A stretch of DNA of 64,000 nucleotides from Minisyncoccia bacterium (GTDB lineage Bacteria > Patescibacteriota > Minisyncoccia > SW-4-49-11): contig JBIIRM010000002.1 of NCBI GenBank assembly GCA_044341565.1, positions 65,812 to 129,811 of the forward strand, written 5' to 3'. How positions within the stretch are numbered: the first letter of the stretch is position 1; each line of letters begins with the position of its first letter. The position numbers and the translations under genes are program-made. Positions 24,192-57,489 of the stretch are shown here, one piece after another. The notes under the pieces were generated by a model. The model was not told where the DNA came from. It saw only the letters and a list, made by a program, of their open reading frames with translations, and made no database searches.

Positions 24192-24836
24192 ATGCAGCCA
24201 TTAAATGGAATGTGGTTATATATTAATCTCGGATTTGCCATAATGTGGGACTTTTTGGGGTTAATTTTATTTGTTATCGATCTTATTCCTGCTGTTCAAG
24301 TTGTTTCTCTAGTGGGATCTTTTGTAGTAGATGCGATAGCTATTATGACTGATATTGCCTTTTGTGCCATATATTATAGCTATCTTACTATCTATAATAC
24401 TAATCTAAAATTGTATCAAGTCAATACCATTAGACAATTAATGCGCTTATCTCGTAATTCCCGTAATACCAGTCCAGCACAAAATAAAATTCAACAAGCT
24501 TTGACTCGTAAAACTCAAGAGGCTAGTAAGTATATGTTAGATAAGACAGGGGAATATATTATGGAATTTGGCTGGAAAAAAACAGTGGGACTGGTAATTG
24601 CTGGAGTTATAGAGGCTATTCCATGGATTGGGGATTTGTCTCCAACTTGGACCATTAAAGCTTGGCTTCATATTAAAGCTCATCGAGCAAGAGCAAAACA
24701 AATCAAAGAAGATAATGAGAAATTTGAAGATTCAATTAATAAATGGAGGCAGTCTCTCAGTGTATCAGGAGCTATAAATAATATTCGTGGATTGAATCGT
24801 AGCCAACAGCCTCAACCAGTAGGAGTAAAAAGATAA
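24192..24836 (+). CDS. hypothetical membrane protein
   Basis: Several predicted TM helices in the N-terminal half and a basic C-terminal tail. No recognised domain. Confidence 0.45.
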   Translation: MQPLNGMWLYINLGFAIMWDFLGLILFVIDLIPAVQVVSLVGSFVVDAIAIMTDIAFCAIYYSYLTIYNTNLKLYQVNTIRQLMRLSRNSRNTSPAQNKIQQALTRKTQEASKYMLDKTGEYIMEFGWKKTVGLVIAGVIEAIPWIGDLSPTWTIKAWLHIKAHRARAKQIKEDNEKFEDSINKWRQSLSVSGAINNIRGLNRSQQPQPVGVKR

Positions 24837-24889
24837 TTCCCATTATTCATCCTAATATGATATACTAAATAAAGATTTAATTAATATCA

Positions 24890-26089
24890 ATGAAATATTC
24901 ACCATATATAATAGCAATACTCCTTATAAGTGTAATGGTACTAAGTTCATCATTAGTATTAGCACAAGATACTAATTCTCCTGATACTGATTCAAGTATT
25001 ATCCCTCAATCAACTATTTCTAATAATGATCCTAGAACTCAAGATGAGGCTAATACTCTTATTGATAATTATATTAAGCAAAGTTTTGCAGATAGTTATT
25101 ATACCGAGAAATCATCAACAGGGGAGATTAAACTTGTAGTAAAAAATAAATATCTTTTTACCAAACAACAAATTAATTTTGCAACTATTAATTATCATAT
25201 AGATAAAGGGTTTGTATTTGATGGAGCTCAATATAATTGGAGAATTAAGAGGGGAGAAAAGATTGTATTTGAAGTAAATGGTATTGATAAAACTGGATTC
25301 TTTTATACATTTTCTGACTCAGGTACTTATCAAATTGAAGTTGCAGTTAATGCTAATGGAGTTATTAAAACGGGAAGTATTAATTTAGATATTTTTGATA
25401 AAATCTCCCTCGATTATAGACCACTTAATCCTGCAAAAGGGGATACCATTTCTGTTGCGACAGAGTTACCCATATCACAATATGCAATTGAGTGGAAAAT
25501 TGATGGGGAGACAGTAGAGCAAAATAATAATAAAATTACCTTTACGGAGAATAAAGGATATGATAAAAGTTATCTCATACAAGCTATTGCAAGAGATAGA
25601 ATAACAGGATATACCAGGTATTATGGAATAAATACTATTGCGATTAAACAGCCTGCAATTCGGGTTTCACTCGTCAATAATAAGAATAATACCCCTATTG
25701 ATTATGCTGATGATTTAAAAATTGATGAGGCAATACAGCTATTGATATCAAGTGATGTGGATAATATTGGGCAAAATGCAAAATTATCTTATACCTATAG
25801 AGTTAATGATAAGGTACAAGATGGTAGTGGTAATTCACTTTCTCTCGATATTGATCCTAATCAAGCCTATAAAATAGATATAGTGGTAAAGGATATTAAT
25901 GGAGATGCCAATGCGACTAAATCTTTTACTATTAATAAAGATAGGATACCACTTGATGCAAATATACAAAGTGCATCTAAATTTGGATTTCTGCGTAATG
26001 ATAGATATATGGGATTGGCAGTATTAGGTTTGGCGGGATTAATTATTCTAGTAATGTCAAGACATAGTAGACTTATAAACAAAGATTAA
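24890..26089 (+). CDS. hypothetical secreted protein with C-terminal TM anchor (beta-rich, Ig-like repeats plausible)
   Basis: Signal peptide MKYSPYIIAILLISVMVLSSSLVLA, C-terminal GLAVLGLAGLIILVMSRHSRL anchor, no LPXTG. Confidence 0.5.
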   Translation: MKYSPYIIAILLISVMVLSSSLVLAQDTNSPDTDSSIIPQSTISNNDPRTQDEANTLIDNYIKQSFADSYYTEKSSTGEIKLVVKNKYLFTKQQINFATINYHIDKGFVFDGAQYNWRIKRGEKIVFEVNGIDKTGFFYTFSDSGTYQIEVAVNANGVIKTGSINLDIFDKISLDYRPLNPAKGDTISVATELPISQYAIEWKIDGETVEQNNNKITFTENKGYDKSYLIQAIARDRITGYTRYYGINTIAIKQPAIRVSLVNNKNNTPIDYADDLKIDEAIQLLISSDVDNIGQNAKLSYTYRVNDKVQDGSGNSLSLDIDPNQAYKIDIVVKDINGDANATKSFTINKDRIPLDANIQSASKFGFLRNDRYMGLAVLGLAGLIILVMSRHSRLINKD

Positions 26090-26100
26090 GAGGGGGATTA

Positions 26101-26352
26101 ATGGACAGCGATAAAAAGAAAAAACAATTAATAATATTATTTGTAATAGGAAGTATTATGATAATAGGTATATTTATTTGGTCTATGATTCTTAATTTCT
26201 CTGATTTGTCTTTTACAAAACCCGATATAAAAGTACCAGAAATACCAAGTGCGAATGAGACAAAAAATCAAGCTGAGGAAATAAAAAATAGTGTAGAAGA
26301 AAATAGTAAAGCTAATACTGAAACTATAAAAGATACCAATAATACAAAATAG
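26101..26352 (+). CDS. small membrane protein (83 aa)
   Basis: Single TM helix (LIILFVIGSIMIIGIFIWSMIL) followed by a charged tail. Tightly packed with neighbours. Confidence 0.4.
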   Translation: MDSDKKKKQLIILFVIGSIMIIGIFIWSMILNFSDLSFTKPDIKVPEIPSANETKNQAEEIKNSVEENSKANTETIKDTNNTK

Positions 26353-26796
26353 CTATTCTGCTGCAATATCTGGTATTACGGTTTTCTCACCATAACTATC
26401 TAGAGTCCAAGCAACTTCTTCTACACGAGATTGATTATAATCATGAGTCTCTCGCCTAAATGAAGCTTTACGCTTTTCAATAGATATTTTAATTACAGAT
26501 TGGGTGGGATCTATATCACGAGACCATAAGAATAGAGTTGGTTTTAAAATATAAATTACTACATTTACAAGAAATATATCAAAATTTTGGCCATTAATTT
26601 TGATAAAAGCAAAAGCAAAAGTTGCTACAGCAACAGGAAGTATACTAATAATAAAAACACCAATATTAGGTTTGAAATACCATAAAAACCCCCCGATTAC
26701 AACTCCAATTGCGAGGAAGGCAAATTGCCTTATAGTAAGAGGTCCAATAATTTTATCTTCAGAATCAATGAATTGAGGGATATTATATTGTTGCAT
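26353..26796 (-). CDS. PrgI-family-like small membrane protein (VirB3-like component of Gram-positive type IV secretion systems)
   Basis: N-terminal IPQFIDSEDKIIGPLTIRQFAFLAIGVVIGGFLWY followed by two further TM helices. Matches the PrgI-family layout. Confidence 0.45.
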   Translation of the reverse strand: MQQYNIPQFIDSEDKIIGPLTIRQFAFLAIGVVIGGFLWYFKPNIGVFIISILPVAVATFAFAFIKINGQNFDIFLVNVVIYILKPTLFLWSRDIDPTQSVIKISIEKRKASFRRETHDYNQSRVEEVAWTLDSYGEKTVIPDIAAE

Positions 26797-26798
26797 AA

Positions 26799-27674
26799 TT
26801 ATTCTGGTTTTTTGAGATTAACAAGATTTTGTGGAATTGGAGTTGGTTTTGCTGTTAATATTACCGGAGCAGAAGTACGACGAGGTATTGGAGCTCTTGG
26901 GGTTGTGTTGTTAGGAATATTATTGCGAGTAGAGGACATTGCTATGACAGGTTGCTGGGAGGGTGAATCGATAGGCTGGGTATTTACTACTGGTTGAGAG
27001 GGTATATTAGGGCTAATTGTAGGGTTATCTGTCTGAGTGGAGGGGGGAGTATATATATCCTGATACAAAACTGTCTCATTAGTTTGAAGATAATCATAAA
27101 ATTGTATTATTTTCCTTAGAGACTCTTTTTCCTCAGAGTTTAGGGTTTGTACAATAGGATCTCCACTAATAAAACGAGAACGCTCAAAGCTATTAGCTGA
27201 CCCAAGACCAGTTAGTCTATCATAATATTCAAGCCAATTACTAATACTTGGTTTAGCTTGAGGATGATCTTGAGATAGGCGTAATACTACAGTACCGATT
27301 AATTGATTATTTTGTTTGAGAAGAGGTAGTAAATCCTTACGCATTTCTTCTTTGATGAGTTCCACAGGATAAATCGAGTATCTACTCTCAATTCTAGCGG
27401 CAAAATCACGCTCAGAGGGCCATAGAGGATTCAAGGCCTCTATAATATTTAGCGAAATAATTTTATGGAATAATTCAGTCGATATATTCGGAATAGCAGT
27501 AACATAAAGCTGGAATATAATTTTGGATAATTCTCGATAAGCCTCAGCATTGGAATCCTTAATATTATTCTCTGTGAGAGATTTCTCTAATTTCTGAGCA
27601 AATTCAAGAGATCCCGGCACATTGTCGTTGCTAATAAGAGATTGAGCTTCACTTTTGATATCTGCGAGTGTCAT
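26799..27674 (-). CDS. hypothetical protein with Pro/Thr/Gln-rich C-terminal low-complexity region
   Basis: 291 aa, no TM. C-terminal PPSTQTDNPTISPNIPSQPVVNTQPIDSPSQQP. Sits in the PrgI/TrbL-like cluster. Confidence 0.45.
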   Translation of the reverse strand: MTLADIKSEAQSLISNDNVPGSLEFAQKLEKSLTENNIKDSNAEAYRELSKIIFQLYVTAIPNISTELFHKIISLNIIEALNPLWPSERDFAARIESRYSIYPVELIKEEMRKDLLPLLKQNNQLIGTVVLRLSQDHPQAKPSISNWLEYYDRLTGLGSANSFERSRFISGDPIVQTLNSEEKESLRKIIQFYDYLQTNETVLYQDIYTPPSTQTDNPTISPNIPSQPVVNTQPIDSPSQQPVIAMSSTRNNIPNNTTPRAPIPRRTSAPVILTAKPTPIPQNLVNLKKPE

Positions 27675-27680
27675 AGTGAA

Positions 27681-29828
27681 CTATGTGTTATTAACAGTAA
27701 CTCGAGATCCTCCTGATGATAAATCTAGACCCTGTAATGCAGCTGTAATTTTTGAATCAAGAGATTTATCTCTTGAGGGATTCTTTAATTCTGCCTCTAA
27801 TCCTTCCTTGATTGTTTTTCTATCTTTTCCAAATTGATTCCAAGTTTCTGATTTTCTTAGTATAGATAGTGATTCACCCTCAATACTTGCTAGAATTGGT
27901 TTAATATTGAACTTAAATGCTTGTTCTCCATTAGTAAATGCTGGGTTATTATTTGCGTCTGTATCTCTAACATTGAACACCGCACTGTTTTTTGCATAAG
28001 CTGCTCCAGCGCCTATTATTCCAGCTTTAGCAGCTTTTGTTGCAGGGGAGTAATTTGGATTTTTTACATCTCGTTCTGCTAGTCCTGCAGCAAAATTTCC
28101 CGCACCTTTATCATTTAATATATTTGCCTGACGACTTCTAAAGCTATTAGTTATTTTATCTCCAATAACCTTCCCATTAGCATCTTTAATAACCTTCCCA
28201 TTAGCATCTTTCCTTTCAAAATTATCATTAATGAATGCATCTAACTGTTCAGCTTCTGAACTATTTTCCTTACCATATTTACTAAAATCACTTGCTTCTT
28301 TGAATATTTGACTCCATCCTTTTAATTCGGATATTCTTGTTGATAATGCCATTGCAGTAAATTTATCCCCATCATCAAGAGCTTTCTTCATATCTTGACC
28401 TAGTTTTTCGATATTAAATTCATCTTTTACTCCTGTGGCAGTAGCAGCTTGTAAAGTTGCAGCCATTTTTTGATAGCGTTCATTTCCTTTTTCTTCTAAC
28501 TTACCTTCATTAAACAAACGAATTGCTTTTTGTTTTTCAAAATCTTCTAATTGCTCTTTTTTACCCTCAGCTGAAAATCCTTGAAATCTTCCTACGAACC
28601 CAACCCCTGTTTTTTGTTTTTCTTTCAAATCTTTCTTGGCACTTTCATAGGATTGATTGGCAGTTTTTAATGCCCCAATTCCAGTTACTCCACCCACAAC
28701 TCCAGCTGTATTAGTGAGCCCACCTGCAAGTTTATCTACATTTTTAACACCACCTTTAGCTAAATCACCAGTAGTTTTAAGAGCTTGAGATGTTTTATAT
28801 CCCCCAGCTCCAATATATCCTCCTATACCAAGGGTAGCTATAGTACCTGCAACACCAACGGCTTTGGATATAATAGGAGGGCCTTGTTGTCCAGCTTTCT
28901 GAGCTTGTATATTAGCTAAAATTACTAAACCAATTACTAGGACATAATTTAAGATATTTCCATTATTGAGTAAATTTCCACCACTAGCTTCATTAGGATT
29001 AACTCCTGCATTCATAACAGTGACTGCAAGATATAATAAGAACATTAAAACAGGACCGGTTATGAGTGCCTCTTGCAGTTTTGTTTTCCAGTCATTATAG
29101 AAGGAGGATAGTCCAGGTATCATAGAGGAGACAAAGGCTAAGGGAGATGTCATAATGACAAACCATAATGTTATTATTCTTACTACCAGTATCATAGCGG
29201 TCCACAGGAATACAAAAATAAGAATAACGATAAGAATAATAGTAAGGAGGTTAATAATAGCAGATCCGATTTTATCTGCTTCAGTTGCAGCTTGAGCAAT
29301 TTTTGATGCAGACCCAATAGAATCTGTTAAAGTTGGCCCAAACGTATTATACAGAGATATCATAATAATTTGACTAATATCTATGAGGAATCCAACAATA
29401 GCTTTACTAAAATTAATAAGTAAAGCCGCAAATATAAATTTTGGTAGCATTCTCTTGGCAGTAAAATTATCTAAACCACCTGTATTAAGTACGGTTGCTA
29501 TTGCAATAAAGAGTAATATAAGAGCAAAAAATAAATTAGCAAAATCTCTGGTGGCTCTCCAACCTGCATTGACACCATTCGTGAAGAAGTTCTGATAAGA
29601 CATTACAGCGTTGAGTAGGGGGGTCACAGTATCTTTAAGGATAGTGCTTAAGGCTGATTTGAAGAAGGCTAAAACTTCTCCCAAAGCAGCTGTTGCGGTA
29701 TCACCAATAAGCCCACCTACCCATCCAAAAGGATTCCAGGCTTGAGCATGAGTTATAGAAGGTAAAAAGAACATAGCTATAATACATATAGGAGCTATAT
29801 ATCGTATATGTTTTGTTTTGATTTTCAT
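27681..29828 (-). CDS. TrbL/VirB6-like polytopic membrane protein with long Gly/Lys-rich C-terminal extension
   Basis: Signal peptide, at least five TM helices in residues 90-330, then a Gly-rich flexible segment (GVAGTIATLGIGGYIGAGGYK...) and a charged C-terminal domain. 715 aa. Confidence 0.45.
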   Translation of the reverse strand: MKIKTKHIRYIAPICIIAMFFLPSITHAQAWNPFGWVGGLIGDTATAALGEVLAFFKSALSTILKDTVTPLLNAVMSYQNFFTNGVNAGWRATRDFANLFFALILLFIAIATVLNTGGLDNFTAKRMLPKFIFAALLINFSKAIVGFLIDISQIIMISLYNTFGPTLTDSIGSASKIAQAATEADKIGSAIINLLTIILIVILIFVFLWTAMILVVRIITLWFVIMTSPLAFVSSMIPGLSSFYNDWKTKLQEALITGPVLMFLLYLAVTVMNAGVNPNEASGGNLLNNGNILNYVLVIGLVILANIQAQKAGQQGPPIISKAVGVAGTIATLGIGGYIGAGGYKTSQALKTTGDLAKGGVKNVDKLAGGLTNTAGVVGGVTGIGALKTANQSYESAKKDLKEKQKTGVGFVGRFQGFSAEGKKEQLEDFEKQKAIRLFNEGKLEEKGNERYQKMAATLQAATATGVKDEFNIEKLGQDMKKALDDGDKFTAMALSTRISELKGWSQIFKEASDFSKYGKENSSEAEQLDAFINDNFERKDANGKVIKDANGKVIGDKITNSFRSRQANILNDKGAGNFAAGLAERDVKNPNYSPATKAAKAGIIGAGAAYAKNSAVFNVRDTDANNNPAFTNGEQAFKFNIKPILASIEGESLSILRKSETWNQFGKDRKTIKEGLEAELKNPSRDKSLDSKITAALQGLDLSSGGSRVTVNNT

Positions 29829-29829
29829 A

Positions 29830-31533
29830 TTATGGTATTAATCCATTAACGGCATTATTGATAGCTCCAGTTGCTGCATTATTAATAGCGCCACTCACAT
29901 TACCAATACCTGGGATATTAATATTCCCGAGAGCTCCATTGAGTAGCCCTGAAACTTGCTTATTAAGCTCACAAGATAATCCATTGGTTACATTTTGTAA
30001 TAATGAATTTTGTAGAGACTTGAAGAATTTATTAGGGTCAGGTATAGCACCTTGTAATCCAGAAGTTAATTGATTAGCAAAACCACTAGGATTCTGTAAT
30101 GAGTTAACAGGATTAGAGGTTACATTTTTTTGTACTGATGCTAGAGTATTATTAACTCCAAATAATCCTTGAGTCAGTACGGGTTTGAGTGACCCCTCGA
30201 GGATATTATTAGGTATTGCTTCAAAACAATTATCTCCAGATGCAGTAATAGCTTGATCCACAGTTGACTCTAATACTTTATTGGTAAGAGATTCTATGTT
30301 TGATCCTGGGGTCTGAATAGTTTTGGTGAATGGGTTCTTATCTCCATCTGCTGTCTTTGCAAAATATCCACTTCCATCACGAACTTCTTGATCAAGGAGT
30401 TCGGTGGCATTTTGTGATTTTTCTGCAGCTACTTGTGCTATATTAAAGGCAATATCATTTGCATTATTATTAGGCTGTAAGCCGAGGAGCGCACATTCAA
30501 AACTTACTTCTCCTGCATCTTCTGTTTTTACATTACCACAGTTTTGTGTGAAATTCTCATCAGGCAATTGACTTTTTTGATCTTGTAAATCTTTAAAATA
30601 CTGCTCTATATCTTTATTTTTATCTAATGAGAAATTCTGATAAGATCCATATTTATCTATAGCTTCTTTAGACACCACTCCAGTTGTAGGGTCTAGAGCT
30701 CCATATTGCCAACCCAAACTCTCGAGGGCAAAATAATTATCAGGTATTAAACTATCATTGCTAATTTGGTATCTCAAGGTATCGCTAACTGTAGCTATGG
30801 TCTTTGCTTTTTGCTGAGCGGCAAGAGGAGCATCGATTAGTTCTTTTTGTTGATATAGAGCTAAATCATCTACTACTACGACAGGAAGCGGGGTAGGAGA
30901 AGTTATATTAACAGGTAATGGTAGGGGATTAAAAATATCCACAGGTAGAGGAGCGGTTAATCTTCTAGTATCTATAACCCTATCTATATTATTATAATTT
31001 TTACAATCATCTCCACCCGCACCCACAAACCCTATCAAATTATTGAAATTTGTACTAGAATTCAACCCATTCAATAAAGTATCAGTTATAACACCGCTTG
31101 GATTAACAAATGTAAATACCGACGGAAGTCCGAATGCTCCACCTCCAGCTCCAATTAACTTCACTCCTCCCACAAGACCAGTCAGGCCATTACCCACTAA
31201 TCCATTCACAGTGTCACCTAATATACCTCCAAAAATACCTCCTCCTGGTCCCTCAGCACAGCCCTCACTACCTTTATATGGACTAGCTGGAGCGGATATA
31301 GCCTGTGGTTTTACACAAGTGTAGGTGGCATTTCCATCATTTTGTGATCCAATTGGTAAAACTCCACGATACTGTTTTTGACAAACTTCATTCTGTCCAC
31401 AAGTTAATGTACCACAAGCACCACCATATAAATTGTCAGCATAAGTTATATTTGGTAAAATGAATATAAATAAAAGGGCTGATAATATTTGTAGTAATTT
31501 GAGATTAATTTTATTTTGAATAATATAATTCAT
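29830..31533 (-). CDS. secreted Gly/Asn-rich protein, possible surface, adhesin or pilus-associated protein
   Basis: Signal peptide and a Cys-containing N-terminal module (GGACGTLTCGQNEVC). Gly-rich low complexity and degenerate C-terminal GxINNAxxG repeats. Confidence 0.45.
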   Translation of the reverse strand: MNYIIQNKINLKLLQILSALLFIFILPNITYADNLYGGACGTLTCGQNEVCQKQYRGVLPIGSQNDGNATYTCVKPQAISAPASPYKGSEGCAEGPGGGIFGGILGDTVNGLVGNGLTGLVGGVKLIGAGGGAFGLPSVFTFVNPSGVITDTLLNGLNSSTNFNNLIGFVGAGGDDCKNYNNIDRVIDTRRLTAPLPVDIFNPLPLPVNITSPTPLPVVVVDDLALYQQKELIDAPLAAQQKAKTIATVSDTLRYQISNDSLIPDNYFALESLGWQYGALDPTTGVVSKEAIDKYGSYQNFSLDKNKDIEQYFKDLQDQKSQLPDENFTQNCGNVKTEDAGEVSFECALLGLQPNNNANDIAFNIAQVAAEKSQNATELLDQEVRDGSGYFAKTADGDKNPFTKTIQTPGSNIESLTNKVLESTVDQAITASGDNCFEAIPNNILEGSLKPVLTQGLFGVNNTLASVQKNVTSNPVNSLQNPSGFANQLTSGLQGAIPDPNKFFKSLQNSLLQNVTNGLSCELNKQVSGLLNGALGNINIPGIGNVSGAINNAATGAINNAVNGLIP

Positions 31534-31536
31534 ATA

Positions 31537-32271
31537 TTATGGTTTTTTATAAATTAAATTATATTTTTGTCTAAGGATATTAAGTTCTTGCTTGATGAGA
31601 GTATCTACATTTCCTAATAAAGACAATGTAATTTTATTGCTAATATCTAATCTGAGTGGGTCCGAGCTAACATTGAGAAGTCCCAACAAAAAGCTATTAT
31701 GAATTTGGGCTATGCGAATATATCCTTTATGAAGCTTTAATGCATCCTGGGGTACTTCTATCTCAAATAATGAACGATATAAATCAGTATTGGTACGGAG
31801 TAGGGACTGAATGTTTTGTGTTTTTCCGTCCAAAGCCTCTTCAGAGAGCTGATTTATATTAGGCTGGATAGTATTATCCTTGAATATAGTGTATACCTCT
31901 TTTAAATATTTTTCAAGTGCTGCTTGTGGATTGTCTGGATTGGGGATAACTTTTATCTGGTCTTCCGGAAGTGGAGGTAAATCTATACGATCAATACCAA
32001 GATTTTGTACATCTTGTTTAACTTGTTCATCAAAAGGATTGGCTGAAATAAGAGCGCTTGCAATAATATCAGCACCTGACTCTGTGAAATTAATTTCTTG
32101 CTCTTTACCATCTTTAATTTGAATAATACGAATAGGAACAAGCCCCTCATCTATAGGCGTGAGCTTGGGTTTAGATTCGGGCTTTAATATGATATAGGTT
32201 ATTCCCAAACCCAATACAAGGATAATACTAGATATGATGATATTTTTCTTTGTGAATAGAGATTTAATCAT
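31537..32271 (-). CDS. bitopic membrane protein (N-terminal TM, periplasmic domain), first gene of the minus-strand cluster
   Basis: MIKSLFTKKNIIISSIILVLGLGITYIIL TM helix, then a ~210-aa soluble domain. Size and topology are VirB8-like but no motif is recognised. Confidence 0.4.
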   Translation of the reverse strand: MIKSLFTKKNIIISSIILVLGLGITYIILKPESKPKLTPIDEGLVPIRIIQIKDGKEQEINFTESGADIIASALISANPFDEQVKQDVQNLGIDRIDLPPLPEDQIKVIPNPDNPQAALEKYLKEVYTIFKDNTIQPNINQLSEEALDGKTQNIQSLLRTNTDLYRSLFEIEVPQDALKLHKGYIRIAQIHNSFLLGLLNVSSDPLRLDISNKITLSLLGNVDTLIKQELNILRQKYNLIYKKP

Positions 32272-32405
32272 GGGAATTCGTATTTGAGATCTATTTTTGT
32301 GACTATAATAATTATAGCATATGGAGAGGTGTATGTATATTCATAATGTTAATTGACAATATTATGTAATATGCTAATATATATATATAGTATAAAATAA
32401 AAATT

Positions 32406-33171: not shown

Positions 33172-33792
33172 ATGGTACATAATGTATTGTACTGGATTAC
33201 CTTCTGGATATTCCATACGATTATACGTTTGTTTGTAAGTACGAAAGATATTCAGGGGCTTGAACATCTCAAAGATATTCGGGGCCCCCTTATTATTGCA
33301 TCTAATCATAGAGGGCGTATTGATGGTATATGGATTTGGTATTATTTAGCTCGGATGAACCGTAACCGAATAGTTCATATGAGGATTATTACAGGTGCAG
33401 TTTTTTTTACTAAGCCAATTGTTGGCTGGTATTTACGTCAAATGCGATGTTTTCCAGTTGTTAGCGGGCAAGGCTTACAGGTTGTTGACCCTATGGTAGA
33501 CGTTTTGAATGATGATGGAATTGTAACTATATTTCCTGAAGGGAAAATGCAAAAAACAGTAAATGGTAGGGGAGAAGCAAAAAGAGGAGTGGGGTATCTT
33601 ATTTGGAAATCTGAAGCTAGAGTACTACCAATATATATCAACTATCATCAAAAATGGAAAAACTTACCATTTTATACAATGACATTTAATGTTGGAAAAA
33701 TCACATCATATGATACAATAAAATCAGAAGATAAATTACAAAAAGTAGCAGATGATGTTTTGGAATCAATTTATCAATTGGATAAAAAATAA
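33172..33792 (+). CDS. plsC: 1-acyl-sn-glycerol-3-phosphate acyltransferase family (lysophospholipid acyltransferase)
   Basis: HxxxxD motif in IIASNHRGRIDGI and the FPEGKM motif. Confidence 0.75.
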   Translation: MVHNVLYWITFWIFHTIIRLFVSTKDIQGLEHLKDIRGPLIIASNHRGRIDGIWIWYYLARMNRNRIVHMRIITGAVFFTKPIVGWYLRQMRCFPVVSGQGLQVVDPMVDVLNDDGIVTIFPEGKMQKTVNGRGEAKRGVGYLIWKSEARVLPIYINYHQKWKNLPFYTMTFNVGKITSYDTIKSEDKLQKVADDVLESIYQLDKK

Positions 33793-52617: not shown

Positions 52618-52847
52618 AAATTATGAAGAAATCAAATAAATTATTTAAACAAGCATTTGCTGAATTAGAGAAGTTAACTCAAGATTTAGAACAAAATGAT
52701 GCCCTAGATTTAGAGAAAGGAGTTGTTTTATTCGAACAAGGTATGGAATTAGCTCAAATCTGTAAAACTCATCTCTCAGAAATCGAAAATACTATTATTA
52801 CTATTCAAAACAAATATTCAAAAAATAATGAAAAATCTCAAAGTTAA
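52608..52847 (+). CDS. xseB: exodeoxyribonuclease VII small subunit
   Basis: 79 aa. FEQGMELAQICKTHLSEIENTI matches the XseB helical hairpin consensus. Confidence 0.65.
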   Translation: MAIKIMKKSNKLFKQAFAELEKLTQDLEQNDALDLEKGVVLFEQGMELAQICKTHLSEIENTIITIQNKYSKNNEKSQS

Positions 52848-54639
52848 TATATCAATTCTTGCTCTAGTATTTTTAATCCCGAGTATTTCTTTTGCTGAAA
52901 CTGGGGATCGCATTGTCTATACACAATGTGAATTATCTCAATATGAAGAGCAATTAGCACCAGATTGGTATTTGGTAGAACAAGGCCAAGTCAAAAAAGA
53001 ATGTATTATTAAAGATATTCCAGAACAAAAAATTTATTTAGCAAGTAATGATATTCAATATGCTAATCAGTGGGCACTCAAAAATACAGGACAAACTATT
53101 TTAGGGCAAGTGGGAATAGCAGGTAAGGATATTGGATTTGAAGCAGGATATCCTAATATTGCAAATGCACCCAAAGGAAATACCAAAATTGGACTTATTG
53201 ATACAGGAGTTACTTCAATTCCTGATACAGCTGCTCAAATAGGAGCAGGATTTAATGTTATCGCTAATAATAGTAATGCAACAGATGATAATGGACATGG
53301 AACATTCATCTCTACTATTATTGCCTCACAAGTAAATAATGCTCAGGGAATAGCAGGAATTAATGATAGGGCCACTATTATCCCTATTAAAGTATTAGGA
53401 GCTGATGGTAGTGGGTATTTATCTGACTTAATAGAGGGAATACAATATGCTATTGACCAAAATGTGGCAATTATTAATTTAAGTCTTGCAACAAGTTCAT
53501 ATACTTCCGCCTTGAATCCCATTATAGAAAAAGCATATCAAAGAGGAATTATTATTGTGGCAGCAGCAGGGAATGGGGGAGTCAATATTACATCTCCTAC
53601 TATATCCCCACTCAATAATGATGGGAATAAAAATTGGATTATTGGTGTTGGTACGGTTGATAATCGTGGGGTAAAACCAGGATATGCTAATGATGGTCTT
53701 GGGGTAGATGTATTGGCGCCGGGGGATGATTTGCTTGGATATAATGCGAGCAATATACTTCAATATCGTTCTGGGACATCTATATCAACAGCAGTTGTTA
53801 CAGGAATTATTTCTGCTTGGCGGGATTATTATGGAACTCTTACCCCGGAAGATGCTATGAATTTGATTAATAGCTCTAGCCAAAATAGAGTTATATCTAT
53901 GAGTGTCGCCATGATAAAGCGTATATATCCCAATGGAGCTTTGATTCGAACAGCTAATTCAGGTGTTTTTATTGTAAAACAGGGGATAAAAAGACCTATT
54001 ATTGATCCTATTGTATTCTTATCCTATTATTATCGTTGGGAAGATATAAGTATCATTAGTCAATCAGTATTTGATGCTATTCCAATCGGGGATGCCTTGT
54101 CTCTAAGAGAAGGACTATTAATTGCAGATAAAGATAAAGTATATGTAATAGAGCAGGGATTAAAGCGTCCAATTGCTTCTCCTGAAGTTTTCCTAGGACT
54201 CGGGTATCAATGGAGTAATATTCAATTCCCATCTCAAGCGGTTCTTAATAATCATCCAACAGGATCCTTGGTGGGGGATATGAATACTCCTCCCAATGGT
54301 AGTGTGATTTATGCCGAAGGAACAGGGGCTTATTTAGTTGAAAATGGGAAGAAAAAACCCTTTAATAGCCCTTATACTTTCTTGAGTAGATATAGATGGA
54401 GTGATTTGATGTTAACTCAACGTAATATTGTGGATAATCTACCTACAGGTCTAGATGTATTCCCTCAAGAAGGTTCTATTATTCGAGATGATGGGGCCGT
54501 ATATTGGATTGAGAATAATACCAAGCGTCCATTTGCTTCACCTGAGGCTTTTTTGGGGCTTGGTTTATCCTGGGGAAGAGTGGTATATCCACCTGATGTT
54601 GTCTTGAATACTCTCAAACAAGGTGCTATAATACAATAA
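52828..54639 (+). CDS. secreted subtilisin-like serine peptidase (S8) with four C-terminal ~60-aa repeats
   Basis: Signal peptide. Catalytic triad contexts DTGV (Asp), HGTFIS (His) and SGTSISTAV (Ser). C-terminal repeats of the same family as 17932-21482. Confidence 0.8.
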   Translation: MKNLKVNISILALVFLIPSISFAETGDRIVYTQCELSQYEEQLAPDWYLVEQGQVKKECIIKDIPEQKIYLASNDIQYANQWALKNTGQTILGQVGIAGKDIGFEAGYPNIANAPKGNTKIGLIDTGVTSIPDTAAQIGAGFNVIANNSNATDDNGHGTFISTIIASQVNNAQGIAGINDRATIIPIKVLGADGSGYLSDLIEGIQYAIDQNVAIINLSLATSSYTSALNPIIEKAYQRGIIIVAAAGNGGVNITSPTISPLNNDGNKNWIIGVGTVDNRGVKPGYANDGLGVDVLAPGDDLLGYNASNILQYRSGTSISTAVVTGIISAWRDYYGTLTPEDAMNLINSSSQNRVISMSVAMIKRIYPNGALIRTANSGVFIVKQGIKRPIIDPIVFLSYYYRWEDISIISQSVFDAIPIGDALSLREGLLIADKDKVYVIEQGLKRPIASPEVFLGLGYQWSNIQFPSQAVLNNHPTGSLVGDMNTPPNGSVIYAEGTGAYLVENGKKKPFNSPYTFLSRYRWSDLMLTQRNIVDNLPTGLDVFPQEGSIIRDDGAVYWIENNTKRPFASPEAFLGLGLSWGRVVYPPDVVLNTLKQGAIIQ

Positions 54640-54661: not shown

Positions 54662-55696
54662 ATGAAAAAACGAATTGCAATCAATGGATTTGGGAGAATT
54701 GGAAGAACGGTATTAAAAATTTCATTATTACCACCTTATAATGAAATGTTAGAAGTAGTAGCAGTTAATGATTTGGGGGATGTGCACAATCTTGCTTATT
54801 TAGTCAAATATGACTCAGTATATGGGACAATACCACAAGAAGTCTCAGTAATGGAGCGAGAAGGAAAACCCTATATTAAAGTTGCTGATCAAGAAATTGT
54901 TGTATGTTCTGAAAAAGATCCCAATAATTTACCATGGGCGAGCCTAGCAATTGATGTAGTGATTGAATCCACAGGATTTTTTACTAGTACTGAGAAATCA
55001 CAAGCCCATATTAATGCTGGGGCAAAAAGAGTTGTAATCTCAGCACCAACTAAGGATGACACCTTAATGGTAACTCCAGCTCTTAATGAGAATGCTCTCA
55101 AAGATGTTTTAATTAGCTCTAATGCATCTTGTACTACCAATGCTACCAATCCAGTAGCTGCTATTATTCATGAAGCACTTGGTATTGAGAAAGCAATGTT
55201 ATCAACAGTTCATGCTTATACCTCAACACAATCTCTCGTAGATGGTATGGCTGACCCTAGTGATATGAGAAGAGGGAGAGCAGGAGCACAGAATATAGTT
55301 CCCTCAACCACAGGAGCTGCAAAGGCAGTAAGTAAGGTAATACCTGATCTTGCAGGGAAATTTGATGGTGTTGCAATTCGTGTGCCTGTTATTGCAGGAT
55401 CATTAATTGATTTGACCATGTTAGTGTCCCGAGATACAACAGTTGAAGAAATAAATCAAATTCTTATTAATGCCTCTAATAGTGATAAGTGGAAAAATAT
55501 ACTCGGAGTAACAACCGATCAATTAGTATCTACTGATATACTGAAATCATCTTATGGGAGTTTGGTTTCTCTTGATTTAACCCAGGTGGTAGATGGGGAC
55601 CTCATTAAGGTTATGGCCTGGTATGATAATGAATGGAGTTATACTTCTATGCTAATGCGTCATGTGCAAACAGTACTGAATGTATTGGAAAGTTAA
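54662..55696 (+). CDS. gap: glyceraldehyde-3-phosphate dehydrogenase
   Basis: INGFGRIGR NAD-binding motif and the SNASCTTN active-site cysteine motif. Confidence 0.9.
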   Translation: MKKRIAINGFGRIGRTVLKISLLPPYNEMLEVVAVNDLGDVHNLAYLVKYDSVYGTIPQEVSVMEREGKPYIKVADQEIVVCSEKDPNNLPWASLAIDVVIESTGFFTSTEKSQAHINAGAKRVVISAPTKDDTLMVTPALNENALKDVLISSNASCTTNATNPVAAIIHEALGIEKAMLSTVHAYTSTQSLVDGMADPSDMRRGRAGAQNIVPSTTGAAKAVSKVIPDLAGKFDGVAIRVPVIAGSLIDLTMLVSRDTTVEEINQILINASNSDKWKNILGVTTDQLVSTDILKSSYGSLVSLDLTQVVDGDLIKVMAWYDNEWSYTSMLMRHVQTVLNVLES

Positions 55697-55704
55697 CACA
55701 TATT

Positions 55705-57489
55705 ATGAAAAACAAAAAATATACAAATAAAAAGGGATTTACTCTATTAGAAATATTATTAGTAATAACGCTTATCGGTATATTAGCTTCCATTGTTCTG
55801 ATTGCAATTAACCCAAATAGACAATTAGCTGAGGCTCGTAATCTAAAGAGATTTGATGATATTACTAAAATCAATCAAGCTTTAGAAGATTATTTTGTTG
55901 TAAATAAAGCCTATCCTACAGGCGTAACGCAATCATATCAAGATATTTGTCCCCCAAGTGGAGGAAGTAATTGTGTGGATTTAAGTGCATTAGTACCTGA
56001 TTATCTTCCTAGTATTCCTATAGCTCCTAATGCAGCTGCAGGAACAACTGGATATACGGTTGCTATAAACACTAAAAATAAACAATTGTCTCTAGAAGCA
56101 AAAACCCCTGAATTAGGAAGTACTATTGTTATTAATCCTATAACCCCTACTAATATTCTATTTGCAAATCAATATAATTTAACTGGGGGAGAGGTGAGTG
56201 AGGGAGTTAATTTTTATGATATTAAAAGTTTTGCTGATGGGAGTAGTATAGCAGCAGGATATATTAGAGGGACTGTAACCTTAGGATTGGATACTTTTAC
56301 ATCATCAGGAGGGCCTGTGAAGATTATTGTGAAATATGATTCGAATGGTGATATTGTATGGGTAAGACAACCTGGTGGCTATGATTATGATAATACAGAA
56401 ATAAGTATATTATCAGATGGAAGCAGTATTGTAACAGGTAGTTTTGATGGTACAGTAACATTTGGAACACAGCCCGCTTTAGTAGGAACGGGTTTTGATA
56501 AATTTATTGTAAAATATGATATAAATGGGACCGTGGTATGGGCAAAAAAGGTATCTAATGGGGGTAATTATAAAACAATACAAGGTTTGAGTGGATTTGC
56601 TGATGGGAGTAGTGTAGTGACAGGATATTTTTCAGGGACATTAGATTTTCAAGGTCAACCACCTCTTATAAATAATAATAGTTTTTCGTGGTATACAGAT
56701 ATGTTTATCGTAAAATATGATACAAACGGAAATGTATTATGGGCGAGATCAGCTGGAGGGTATGATTCTTCTGATTACGGACAAAAAGCTACTACATTAA
56801 CAGACGGAAGTAGTATTGTAACAGGTAGTTTTGGTACTACAATAACATTTGGAGACCAACCACCTTTGGTGACTGTTGGAGGATCTGATATGTATCTTAC
56901 AAAATATGATACGAGTGGAAATGCAGTATGGTCAAAACAAATTGTATCAAATTATTATGCTGGTATTAATGGAATAAAAAGTTTAACAGGTGGGGGTAGT
57001 ATTATAACAGGTAATTTTAATGGTACGATAACATTTGGAGATCAACCACCTTTGGAGAGTATTGGAGAAACTGATATATTTATTGTAAAGTATGATACTA
57101 ATGGTAATGTTGTATGGGCAAAGCAAGTAGGGGCAACCAATTATAATTCGAGTTTGGACATAAGTGTATTAACAGATGGAAGTAGTATTATAACAGGTAG
57201 TTTTGGTGGCACGGTAGCATTTGGAAACCAGCCTGCTTTAGTAAGTTCTGGAGAAAATGATATATTTATTGCAAAATATGATACCAATGGTAATGTTATA
57301 TGGGTCAAATCAGCTGGTGCAGCTACAGAACCAGTGGATACAGATATTGGTTTAGGTATAACGGTTTTAAGTAATGGAGACTTTATACTTATTGGATCAG
57401 TAAATCCTTTTGCATCTTTTGACAATGGATTATATGACCTTAATAATAGTAGCTATGTTACATTTATGATGAAATATAAAGGAACTTAG
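55705..57489 (+). CDS. type IV pilin-like protein with large C-terminal beta-propeller (SBBP-like) repeat domain
   Basis: KKGFTLLEILLVITLIGILASIVLIAI prepilin motif. At least eight repeats of pattern DGSSIVTGSF.GT.TFG.QP.L......D.FIVKYDTNGNVVWAK. Confidence 0.7.
   Translation: MKNKKYTNKKGFTLLEILLVITLIGILASIVLIAINPNRQLAEARNLKRFDDITKINQALEDYFVVNKAYPTGVTQSYQDICPPSGGSNCVDLSALVPDYLPSIPIAPNAAAGTTGYTVAINTKNKQLSLEAKTPELGSTIVINPITPTNILFANQYNLTGGEVSEGVNFYDIKSFADGSSIAAGYIRGTVTLGLDTFTSSGGPVKIIVKYDSNGDIVWVRQPGGYDYDNTEISILSDGSSIVTGSFDGTVTFGTQPALVGTGFDKFIVKYDINGTVVWAKKVSNGGNYKTIQGLSGFADGSSVVTGYFSGTLDFQGQPPLINNNSFSWYTDMFIVKYDTNGNVLWARSAGGYDSSDYGQKATTLTDGSSIVTGSFGTTITFGDQPPLVTVGGSDMYLTKYDTSGNAVWSKQIVSNYYAGINGIKSLTGGGSIITGNFNGTITFGDQPPLESIGETDIFIVKYDTNGNVVWAKQVGATNYNSSLDISVLTDGSSIITGSFGGTVAFGNQPALVSSGENDIFIAKYDTNGNVIWVKSAGAATEPVDTDIGLGITVLSNGDFILIGSVNPFASFDNGLYDLNNSSYVTFMMKYKGT

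What the first reader, a model, noticed from the sequence alone, without database searches (positions are those of the whole stretch)
24192..32271. Eight-gene membrane/secreted cluster with a PrgI-family protein and a TrbL/VirB6-like protein but no ATPase
Eight consecutive genes (three on plus, five on minus, convergent) have no housekeeping assignment and all encode membrane or secreted proteins. One is a PrgI-like small protein (IIGPLTIRQF then two TM helices). PrgI proteins are VirB3-like parts of Gram-positive type IV secretion systems. Another is a 715-aa polytopic protein with signal peptide, at least five TM helices and a long Gly/Lys-rich C-terminal extension (TrbL/VirB6-like). The rest are a bitopic 244-aa protein (VirB8-sized), a secreted Gly/Asn-rich protein with GxINNAxxG repeats, a Pro-rich soluble protein and an anchored beta-rich protein. 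No VirB4/VirD4 ATPase is in the window. The locus is therefore either part of a split type IV secretion system with ATPases elsewhere, or a distinct ATPase-less envelope-spanning system. Type IV secretion is known to matter for the epibiotic lifestyle of Saccharibacteria. These proteins look divergent enough to be unannotated components.
Basis: partly seen in the sequence, partly recalled or inferred. Interest (0 to 1): 0.75.

Follow-up and report, generated by a model that had tools for sequence, protein, structure and literature searches.

The report
VirB6–PrgI secretion module without its ATPase
A freshwater ultra-small bacterium (Paceibacteria/Parcubacteria) keeps two membrane parts of the known patescibacterial type IV secretion system in a conserved chromosomal gene cluster, but the motor ATPase that normally sits next to them is missing from the neighbourhood, and one part carries a tail domain that is swapped between lineages.

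Summary
The eight ORFs are real, tightly packed and conserved as a block in more than 20 related loci. All eight are under purifying selection (dN/dS 0.05-0.25).

The other six proteins are confined to this clade. The 244-aa protein is a TM helix plus four-helix bundle, not VirB8-like.

In other Patescibacteria, PrgI is followed directly by TrsD/TraC-like and VirB4 genes (59 of 59 informative loci). Here PrgI ends the operon. No VirB4, TrsD, VirD4 or VirB11 lies in the 64-kb window, within about 10 kb to the left or 5.5 kb to the right of it, or in any related locus fetched up to that point.

I could not establish whether VirB4 is encoded elsewhere in the genome. My estimate is about 0.65 that it is and 0.28 that the system lacks an ATPase.

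New observation: the VirB6 C-terminal domain exists in at least 16 types that are shuffled against the species tree.

The organism is Paceibacteria, not Saccharibacteria. Patescibacterial T4SS is already published (2023, 2025), so this is a new variant of a known kind.

The parts
31537..32271 (-). g8, first gene of the minus-strand operon. A 244-aa bitopic membrane protein: N-terminal TM helix, a small alpha/beta unit and a four-helix bundle. The family is confined to this clade.
29830..31533 (-). g7, a 567-aa secreted protein with a signal peptide and 10 Cys, 7 of them invariant. It has the invariant Pro-rich core APLPVDIFNPLPLPVN..VVVDDLALYQQ and a Gly/Asn-rich C-terminus. Clade-specific.
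   Evidence: No Pfam, NCBIfam or PDB-sequence hit. dN/dS 0.08-0.14 outside the variable segment.
30952..31272 (-). Hypervariable Gly-rich segment of g7 (aa 88-194).
   Evidence: No DNA similarity here even to the closest relative L009, whose flanks are 91-94% identical. dN 0.85-0.92, dS 1.2-1.5. The alignment is gap-ridden in this region.
28884..29681 (-). g6 N-domain (aa 50-315 of the 715-aa protein encoded at 27681-29828): the polytopic VirB6/TrbL fold.
28572..28883 (-). g6 Gly/Lys-rich linker (aa 316-419). It is predicted disordered and is the recombination joint between the N- and C-domains.
   Evidence: pLDDT below 50 over aa 316-419. Net charge +6.3. DNA similarity to L012 stops at window 28800.
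27681..28571 (-). g6 C-terminal helical domain (aa 420-715): polymorphic, modular and probably cytoplasmic.
26799..27674 (-). g5, a 291-aa protein with no TM segment: a helical N-terminal part of about 200 aa and a Pro-rich tail. It occupies the slot between VirB6 and PrgI, as a different and non-homologous protein does in canonical loci.
   Evidence: hhalign against the positional equivalents in L008 and L005 gives probability below 2%. No PDB or Pfam hit. dN/dS 0.14-0.16.
26353..26796 (-). g4, a PrgI/VirB3-family protein of 147 aa and the last gene of the operon. It is as conserved as the housekeeping genes.
   Evidence: PF12666 at 43.6 bits, cut-off 27. 96% identical to L012, against 95% for SHMT and AspRS. 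dN/dS 0.045-0.075. The N-terminal motif PQFxDxExKIxGPxTxRQF and the C-tail T134/G136 are shared with VirB4-linked PrgI proteins.
26101..26352 (+). g3, an 83-aa single-TM protein. Its stop codon abuts the PrgI stop codon.
   Evidence: Conserved in the same position across the clade. dN/dS 0.05-0.18.
24890..26089 (+). g2, a 399-aa protein with a signal peptide, Ig/PKD-like beta domains and a C-terminal TM anchor.
   Evidence: Sub-threshold PKD_4 and Ig hits. The L004 orthologue gives PKD at 22.9 bits against a cut-off of 23.5. Conserved in position.
24192..24836 (+). g1, a 214-aa membrane protein with an N-terminal hydrophobic hairpin and a basic helical tail. It is the first gene of the plus-strand arm.
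   Evidence: No family hit.
32311..32339 (-). Promoter-like site (TATACA-17-TATAAT with an extended -10 TG), about 40 nt upstream of the g8 start codon.
   Evidence: (10 of 12 matches). This is a consensus match only: such sites are not enriched over shuffled sequence in this AT-rich region.

Best explanation
The locus is a vertically inherited chromosomal membrane module derived from the patescibacterial (Gram-positive, MPF-FATA-like) type IV secretion system.

Its core is an extended VirB6 channel and platform protein together with the VirB3-like protein PrgI. These are co-transcribed with three clade-specific proteins: a bitopic four-helix-bundle protein, a secreted disulfide-bonded protein, and a Pro-rich protein with no predicted TM segment. 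Three further clade-specific membrane or surface proteins are encoded on the facing arm.

The most likely mode of action is that PrgI and VirB6 form the membrane translocon, and that PrgI docks a TrsD-VirB4 ATPase pair encoded elsewhere on the chromosome. This could be as the genome's only VirB3/VirB6 set or as a second set. The clade-specific secreted and anchored proteins would supply the extracellular part of the machine.

The polymorphic VirB6 C-terminal domain and the hypervariable segment of the secreted protein would tune partner specificity (host or substrate).

Shown: the identity of PrgI and VirB6, the operon anatomy, conservation, purifying selection, absence of a nearby ATPase, and domain shuffling.

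Inferred: that a distal VirB4 exists and is used, the roles of the six other genes, and the purpose of the variable domains.
For: PrgI is above Pfam's cut-off.

VirB6 is supported by family membership of its orthologues, by fold and by HMM match to the VirB6 of VirB4-containing loci.

The nearest outgroup loci have VirB6 - X - PrgI - TraC-like/TrsD - VirB4 in one operon. In 59 of 59 informative VirB4 loci, PrgI and TrsD sit directly upstream of VirB4. The window module is therefore homologous to the front half of that operon.

PrgI here is constrained as tightly as SHMT and AspRS (96% identity, dN/dS about 0.05). It keeps the N-terminal motif and C-tail residues shared with VirB4-linked PrgI proteins. 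That fits a retained, conserved binding partner, and VirB4 is 65-76% identical across Patescibacteria.

From the literature: VirB4 was found in 2,417 of 3,035 patescibacterial genomes. Only 880 of 1,649 VirB3 homologues and 304 of 480 VirB6 homologues lie near virB4. In Microgenomatia and Gracilibacteria most VirB3 genes are remote from virB4 (PMC12102498). Split arrangements therefore exist in genomes that have VirB4.

Chromosomal, non-mobile status rests on three points. The housekeeping flanks are the same in relatives down to about 50% identity (SHMT/FolD on one side, YtxH/acyltransferase/AspRS on the other). GC content is no different from the surroundings. The window contains no integrase or relaxase.
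Against: No VirB4 or TrsD was found anywhere I could look. That covers the 64-kb window and the gene tables for about 10 kb to the left and 5.5 kb to the right of it. It also covers the 14 window-clade genome loci (L009-L022) and the earlier loci searched by tblastn. The gene tables of loci fetched later (L024-L027) list no VirB4 family either.

Among the 120 best VirB4 hits and 80 VirB4 metagenome loci, none lies on a contig whose length matches a window-clade contig. This is a weak test, because thousands of VirB4 proteins were not listed.

Window-clade PrgI is more distant from VirB4-linked PrgI proteins (median 30%, maximum 37%) than those are from one another (median 47%). That would also fit a protein that has changed partners.

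About 20% of patescibacterial assemblies in the published survey lack VirB4.
Confidence: 0.65

Rival explanations
1. An ATPase-less derivative. In this Paceibacteria clade the VirB3/VirB6 pair has been exapted, together with six new envelope proteins, into an envelope complex that no longer uses VirB4. It might serve as a passive conduit, an adhesion or contact platform, or a scaffold energised by another machine.
For: The clade-wide arrangement ends the operon at PrgI, with a convergent gene abutting it at 0 nt. No VirB4 or TrsD lies in about 80 kb around the window locus or in the related loci. PrgI and VirB6 of the clade form a divergent branch relative to VirB4-linked ones. Six co-conserved partners have no counterpart in canonical loci. 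About 20% of surveyed assemblies lack VirB4.
Against: No T4SS-derived system without VirB4 is known. VirB4 is the hallmark of the superfamily (PMC12102498). The only established role of VirB3 is to bind and anchor VirB4 at 1:1 stoichiometry (PMC12857230). The very strong constraint on PrgI, including its short cytoplasmic termini, is most simply explained by a conserved partner. Absence was tested only locally.
Confidence: 0.28
2. A decaying remnant of an integrated conjugative element or of the ancestral T4SS locus, left behind after the ATPase genes were lost and no longer functional.
For: The hallmark ATPase is missing. Only two of the eight genes have T4SS homology.
Against: All eight genes are intact and in the same order across relatives whose housekeeping proteins have diverged to 50-70% identity. 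dN/dS is 0.05-0.25 for every gene. There is no integrase, relaxase or compositional anomaly. The flanks are identical housekeeping genes in all loci.
Confidence: 0.03
3. Not related to type IV secretion at all: the PrgI and VirB6 resemblances are convergent features of small and polytopic membrane proteins.
For: The window's own VirB6-like protein gets no Pfam hit. Foldseek E-values are modest at 0.03.
Confidence: 0.02

Closest known systems
Patescibacterial (CPR) T4SS, as in Southlakia epibionticum SEML1_0006-0019 and the VirB4-centred loci surveyed by Quinonero-Coronel et al. 2025 (PMC10633639, PMC12102498)
   Same: The same two membrane components, a PrgI/VirB3 protein and a VirB6 homologue, in the same VirB6 - X - PrgI order. 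Chromosomal, with no relaxase, in a monoderm ultra-small bacterium. HMMs of the window clade hit the PrgI and VirB6 proteins of VirB4-containing patescibacterial operons.
   Different: TrsD and VirB4 do not follow PrgI here, whereas they do in 59 of 59 sampled canonical loci. No VirB2-like pilin array, VirB1-like hydrolase or VirB8-like protein was recognised in the cluster. The partner genes (g1-3, g5, g7, g8) are unrelated to those of canonical loci. The VirB6 is shorter (about 700 aa versus 930-980 aa) and has a recombining C-domain. The locus is not next to dnaA, unlike many Paceibacteria T4SS loci. The window has no dnaA or dnaN and GC skew does not change sign.
Enterococcus pCF10 Prg/Pcf T4SS: prgH (VirB6) - prgI (VirB3) - prgJ (VirB4)
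   Same: PrgI family membership (Pfam PF12666), two TM helices, and a position immediately after the VirB6-like gene (PMC12857230).
   Different: In pCF10, prgI overlaps prgJ (VirB4) and the system is plasmid-borne and conjugative, with a relaxase, T4CP, PrgK hydrolase and PrgL/PrgD VirB8-like proteins. None of these is present in this cluster.
R388 TrwI/VirB6 (PDB 7O3V, 8RT9), the pentameric base of the T4SS stalk
   Different: Sequence identity is 10-15%. The window protein has a signal peptide, a disordered basic linker of about 100 aa and a helical C-domain of about 300 aa that TrwI lacks. No VirB5 partner was recognised.
'Extended VirB6' proteins such as F-plasmid TraG and the Rickettsiales VirB6 paralogues (class described in PMC12857230; the F TraG details are from my own knowledge)
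   Same: A VirB6-like polytopic domain followed by a large hydrophilic C-proximal domain. In F and SXT TraG, a variable region of that extension sets partner specificity in entry exclusion with TraS/Eex. That offers a precedent for allele-specific recognition by a VirB6 extension.
   Different: No sequence or fold similarity between the C-domains was detected. No exclusion-protein partner was identified. Those systems all have VirB4.

Membership tests
Type IV secretion system (any MPF class) | VirB4-family ATPase, the only universal hallmark | tested here: not met
   No VirB4 or TraC-like/TrsD was found in the window by tblastn, by HMM with filters off, or by Pfam on all ORFs of at least 150 aa. 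None was found about 10 kb left or 5.5 kb right of the window, nor in the 14 window-clade genome loci (L009-L022) and the earlier loci searched by tblastn. The gene tables of L024-L027 also list none. The rest of the genome could not be searched, so the feature is unmet locally and untested genome-wide.
Type IV secretion system (any MPF class) | VirB3-like small two-TM protein (PrgI family) | tested here: met
   PF12666 at 43.6 bits against a cut-off of 27. Two hydrophobic helices. 81 bits to the PrgI proteins of VirB4 operons.
Type IV secretion system (any MPF class) | VirB6/TrbL polytopic membrane protein | tested here: met
Gram-positive (MPF-FATA) T4SS | VirB8-like bitopic protein with an NTF2-like domain (PrgL/TraM type) | tested here: not met
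Gram-positive (MPF-FATA) T4SS | VirB1-like peptidoglycan hydrolase in or beside the cluster | tested here: inconclusive
   None is present among the eight genes. A secreted Amidase_2 protein (19881-21482) lies 2.7 kb away beyond SHMT/FolD and stays within 10 kb of the cluster in relatives, even where it has been rearranged (L007). Linkage alone does not show function.
Gram-positive (MPF-FATA) T4SS | VirD4/TcpA-type coupling protein | tested here: not met
   None in the window. The published survey finds T4CP homologues in 2,918 of 3,035 patescibacterial genomes, mostly far from virB4, so a distal copy is likely but was not tested.
Patescibacterial T4SS (Quinonero-Coronel 2025; Wang 2023) | PrgI - TrsD - VirB4 contiguity | tested here: not met
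   The three genes are contiguous in 59 of 59 informative canonical loci and in L005, L006 and L008. The contiguity is absent in the window and in all window-clade loci.
Patescibacterial T4SS (Quinonero-Coronel 2025; Wang 2023) | VirB2-like pilin gene or array near the cluster | tested here: inconclusive
   Neither of the two small genes scanned against Pfam/NCBIfam, g3 (83 aa) and the 115-aa protein next to the cluster, gives a pilin-family hit. The remaining small ORFs of the window were listed and read by eye, and none shows a signal peptide plus two TM helices. Dedicated VirB2 profiles were not available.
Integrative conjugative element or plasmid remnant | Integrase or relaxase, compositional anomaly, patchy distribution | tested here: not met
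   No such genes were found. GC is 0.31-0.36, like the rest of the window. The flanks are fixed housekeeping genes in every relative.

The most novel reading that the evidence does not exclude
A whole clade of freshwater Paceibacteria has lost VirB4 but keeps a VirB3/VirB6 pair under housekeeping-grade constraint. The pair would be rebuilt with six new envelope proteins into an ATPase-independent cell-contact or transfer device. Its VirB6 C-terminal domain (at least 16 exchangeable types) and a hypervariable secreted subunit would determine which host or partner it engages. This would be the first T4SS-derived machine without the superfamily's defining ATPase.
Probability: 0.22. Interest if true: 0.85.

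Novelty: new variant of a known kind. Interest (0 to 1): 0.55.

Why it matters
T4SS genes are essential for the epibiotic growth of the one genetically tractable patescibacterium, and what they transport is unknown (PMC10633639). Published surveys were centred on virB4 and left the many VirB3/VirB6 genes remote from virB4 unexamined (PMC12102498).

This locus is a clean, clade-wide example of such an uncoupled module. It comes with a defined set of co-conserved partner proteins.

It also has a domain that is exchanged between lineages like a specificity cassette. That points to where host or substrate specificity may reside, and it gives concrete targets for structure prediction of complexes and for genetics.

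If the clade truly lacks VirB4, it would overturn the rule that VirB4 defines the superfamily.

Tried and rejected
1. Looking for VirB4 elsewhere in the same genomes. I used the 'longest contig' values of protein clusters as fingerprints for window-clade contigs (132404, 425073, 298903, 1172455 and others). None matched among the best 120 VirB4 hits or the 80 metagenome VirB4 loci. One apparent match (13,726 bp; P0068 and P0202) was a coincidence, because that contig has no VirB4. The family is too large and too conserved for this approach to be conclusive.

2. Looking up window-clade assemblies in Table S1 of PMC12102498, which records VirB4 presence per genome. The held text is truncated, and none of the accessions I knew is in it.

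3. Profile searches of g5, g6, g7 and g8 against PDB sequences gave nothing.

4. hhalign of g5 against the proteins in the same slot of canonical loci showed no homology.

5. HMMs of g1, g2, g3, g5, g7 and g8 against canonical loci gave nothing.

6. The VirB8 hypothesis for g8 is rejected by the fold.

8. Walker-A scanning of the eight proteins and of the whole window found no candidate NTPase.

9. The promoter and terminator scan is uninformative in this AT-rich DNA: counts equal those of shuffled sequence.

Full report
**Observation.** The eight ORFs are present exactly as described. The five minus-strand genes run g8 31537-32271, g7 29830-31533, g6 27681-29828, g5 26799-27674 and g4 26353-26796. 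They are separated by only 1-6 nt. A promoter-like site lies upstream of g8. They therefore look like one operon. The three plus-strand genes are g1 24192-24836, g2 24890-26089 and g3 26101-26352. They converge on the operon, and the g3 and g4 stop codons abut with no spacer. GC content (0.31-0.36) does not differ from the rest of the window.

**What the two recognisable proteins are.** g4 is a PrgI-family (VirB3-like) protein: PF12666 at 43.6 bits against a gathering score of 27.

The g6 sequence alone gives only a sub-threshold match to the NCBIfam CD3337/EF1877 mobilome membrane protein family (E 2e-7). However, 43 of its 94 close homologues carry Pfam TrbL_3. An AlphaFold2 model built from 34 homologues has three parts:
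- a helical membrane domain at aa 50-315, pLDDT 70-85;
- a disordered Gly/Lys-rich linker at aa 316-419;
- a confidently folded helical C-domain at aa 420-700, pLDDT about 90.

**The other six proteins.** None has a Pfam, NCBIfam or PDB-sequence match of any weight. The nearest thing to one is a set of near-threshold PKD/Ig-like hits for g2.
- The g8 family consists of only 40 clusters in a 5.8-billion-protein database, all from this clade.
- g7 is secreted. It has seven invariant cysteines and an invariant Pro-rich core.
- g5 has no TM segment and a Pro-rich tail.

**Context and relatives.** The whole block recurs in more than 20 loci from genomes and metagenomes. Its flanks also recur: SHMT and FolD on one side; a small TM protein, YtxH, an acyltransferase and AspRS on the other. 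These relatives are mostly from freshwater lakes.

Record titles name Candidatus Paceibacterota/Paceibacteria or the Parcubacteria group. A few automated submissions are labelled "uncultured Candidatus Saccharibacteria", and one homologue is named Candidatus Elulimicrobium. The organism is therefore a Paceibacteria-type patescibacterium, not a member of the Saccharibacteria proper.

All ORFs of at least 150 aa in the window are ordinary chromosomal genes. They include ligA, mur genes, topA, mraZ/mraW, a PBP, gap, mnmA and gmk.

**The missing ATPase.** The nearest outgroup homologues of g6 lie in operons of the form VirB6 (933-975 aa) - X - PrgI - TraC-like/TrsD - VirB4. I fetched 80 patescibacterial VirB4 loci. 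In all 59 with enough upstream sequence, PrgI and the TraC-like gene sit directly upstream of VirB4. That matches the published description of the patescibacterial T4SS (PMC12102498).

In the window clade the operon stops at PrgI. Searches gave the following results:
- tblastn and HMM searches with VirB4 and TraC-like proteins find nothing in the window.
- tblastn finds nothing in the 14 window-clade genome loci (L009-L022) or the earlier loci. The gene tables of L024-L027 list no VirB4 family.
- The gene tables for about 10 kb left and 5.5 kb right of the window also lack it. The left side holds a type IV pilus cluster with its own PilB and PilT ATPases.

Only PrgI and VirB6 are shared between window-type and canonical loci. 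g5 is not homologous to the protein in the equivalent slot.

**Is VirB4 elsewhere in these genomes?** I could not answer this. An indirect test matched contig lengths between VirB4 protein clusters and window-clade contigs. It found nothing among 200 listed VirB4 entries, but thousands were not listed. One apparent match proved coincidental. The supplementary table of the 2025 survey is truncated in the held copy and lacks the assemblies I could name.

**Arguments bearing on the choice.** In favour of a distal VirB4:
- PrgI is constrained like a housekeeping gene. It is 96% identical to a relative whose SHMT and AspRS are 95% identical, and its dN/dS is 0.045-0.075.
- It retains the N-terminal motif and C-tail residues common to VirB4-linked PrgI proteins.
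- The only known role of VirB3 is to bind VirB4 (PMC12857230).
- VirB4 is present in about 80% of surveyed patescibacterial assemblies, and VirB3 genes remote from virB4 are common in some classes.

In favour of an ATPase-less system:
- Window-clade PrgI is a divergent branch. Its identity to VirB4-linked PrgI proteins is 37% at most, whereas those share a median of 47% with one another.
- It has six novel co-conserved partners.
- About 20% of surveyed assemblies lack VirB4.

I put the distal-VirB4 reading at about 0.65 and the ATPase-less reading at about 0.28. A decaying remnant is essentially excluded, because all eight genes are intact across deep divergence with dN/dS 0.05-0.25.

**An unexpected feature: a modular VirB6 tail.** Between the window and a close relative (L012, flanks about 88% identical in DNA), similarity holds right up to the g6 stop codon. 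It then vanishes across the C-domain, drops to 73% in the membrane domain, and recovers near the g6 start.

At protein level the window's C-domain is 26% identical to that of L012, whose housekeeping proteins are 95% identical. It is 63% identical to that of L010, whose housekeeping proteins are about 80% identical. L012's C-domain is 56-63% identical to those of much more distant genomes.

Among 90 full-length homologues:
- the C-domain falls into at least 16 types;
- N- and C-domain identities correlate at only r = 0.32;
- 874 of 4,005 pairs combine at least 70% N-domain identity with at most 35% C-domain identity;
- P0001 versus P0019 is 94% in the N-domain and 30% in the C-domain.

Synonymous divergence in the C-domain (1.3-1.8) is two to three times that of the flanks (about 0.6). 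This indicates old alleles moved by recombination at the Gly-rich linker, rather than rapid local evolution.

A second hypervariable stretch is g7 aa 88-194. It has no DNA similarity even to the closest relative, which is 91-94% identical elsewhere.

A positive-inside count favours the canonical VirB6 topology with N-terminus out and C-terminus in, which puts the variable domain in the cytoplasm. This is a crude estimate. From my own knowledge, the variable regions of F and SXT TraG, also extended VirB6 proteins, set allele-specific recognition in entry exclusion. That is a precedent for a VirB6 extension acting as a specificity determinant.

**Comparison and novelty.** The locus works like, and is homologous to, the membrane core of the patescibacterial (Gram-positive-type) T4SS. 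It fails the defining test for a T4SS, a VirB4 ATPase, within the sequence available. It also lacks recognisable VirB8, VirB1, VirD4 and pilin components.

Patescibacterial T4SS is published, and VirB3/VirB6 genes remote from virB4 have been counted but not analysed. Three things appear to be new:
- the clade-wide uncoupled module;
- its six private partner genes;
- the recombining VirB6 C-domain.

I rate it a new variant of a known kind, with interest 0.55.

Noticed in passing
window 27681-28571 (-), with homologues P0001-P0094: The C-terminal domain of the VirB6-like protein occurs in at least 16 sequence types that are distributed incongruently with the N-domain and with the housekeeping genes. 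Recombination breakpoints lie at the Gly-rich linker and exactly at the stop codon.
   Followed up: yes
window 30952-31272 (-): The Gly-rich segment of the secreted 567-aa protein (aa 88-194) has no DNA similarity even to the closest relative, which is 91-94% identical elsewhere. This is a second hypervariable spot in the operon.
   Followed up: partly
left of window position 1 (gene table of a JGI 75-kb contig): A complete type IV pilus cluster lies within 10 kb upstream of the window start, about 25-34 kb from the VirB6/PrgI operon. It comprises PilM, PilB (MshEN+T2SSE), a response regulator, PilT, PilC, a pilin and the prepilin peptidase.
   Followed up: no
window 55633-57489 (+): A 618-aa protein with an N-terminal prepilin methylation motif (N_methyl, E 9e-7). 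It is a very large pilin-like protein, far from the pilus cluster.
   Followed up: no
window 17932-19878 (+), 19881-21482 (+), 52828-54639 (+): A 648-aa secreted protein, the adjacent Amidase_2 protein and a subtilase share tandem repeats of about 110 aa at 30-38% identity, probably a cell-wall or surface-binding module. The amidase pair stays within 10 kb of the VirB6/PrgI cluster in relatives, even where it has been rearranged (L007).
   Followed up: partly
window 33172-33792 (+): The acyltransferase next to YtxH is only 62-67% identical to its counterparts in L012 and L014. Its neighbours are 85-95% identical. This is another locally fast-diverging or exchanged gene.
   Followed up: no
L004 14162-15277 (-), L007 13898-15013 (-): In the most divergent members of the clade, the arm facing PrgI has four genes rather than three. 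There is an extra 371-aa protein, and the g1 homologue is longer (338-348 aa).
   Followed up: no
L009, L016, L019 (record titles): Three genome records of this clade are titled 'uncultured Candidatus Saccharibacteria bacterium'. Their relatives are labelled Paceibacteria, Paceibacterota or Parcubacteria. The Saccharibacteria labels are probably mislabelling from automated submissions.
   Followed up: no
window 26350-26356: The stop codons of the convergent genes g3 and PrgI are directly adjacent with 0 nt between them. That leaves no intergenic room for terminators, so any termination signal must lie inside the coding sequence.
   Followed up: no
L005 8882-9925 (-), 5666-8038 (-): In one canonical outgroup locus, dprA and topA lie immediately upstream of the VirB6 gene. 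The 2025 survey also notes competence and recombination genes near T4SS loci in the ABY1 class.
   Followed up: no
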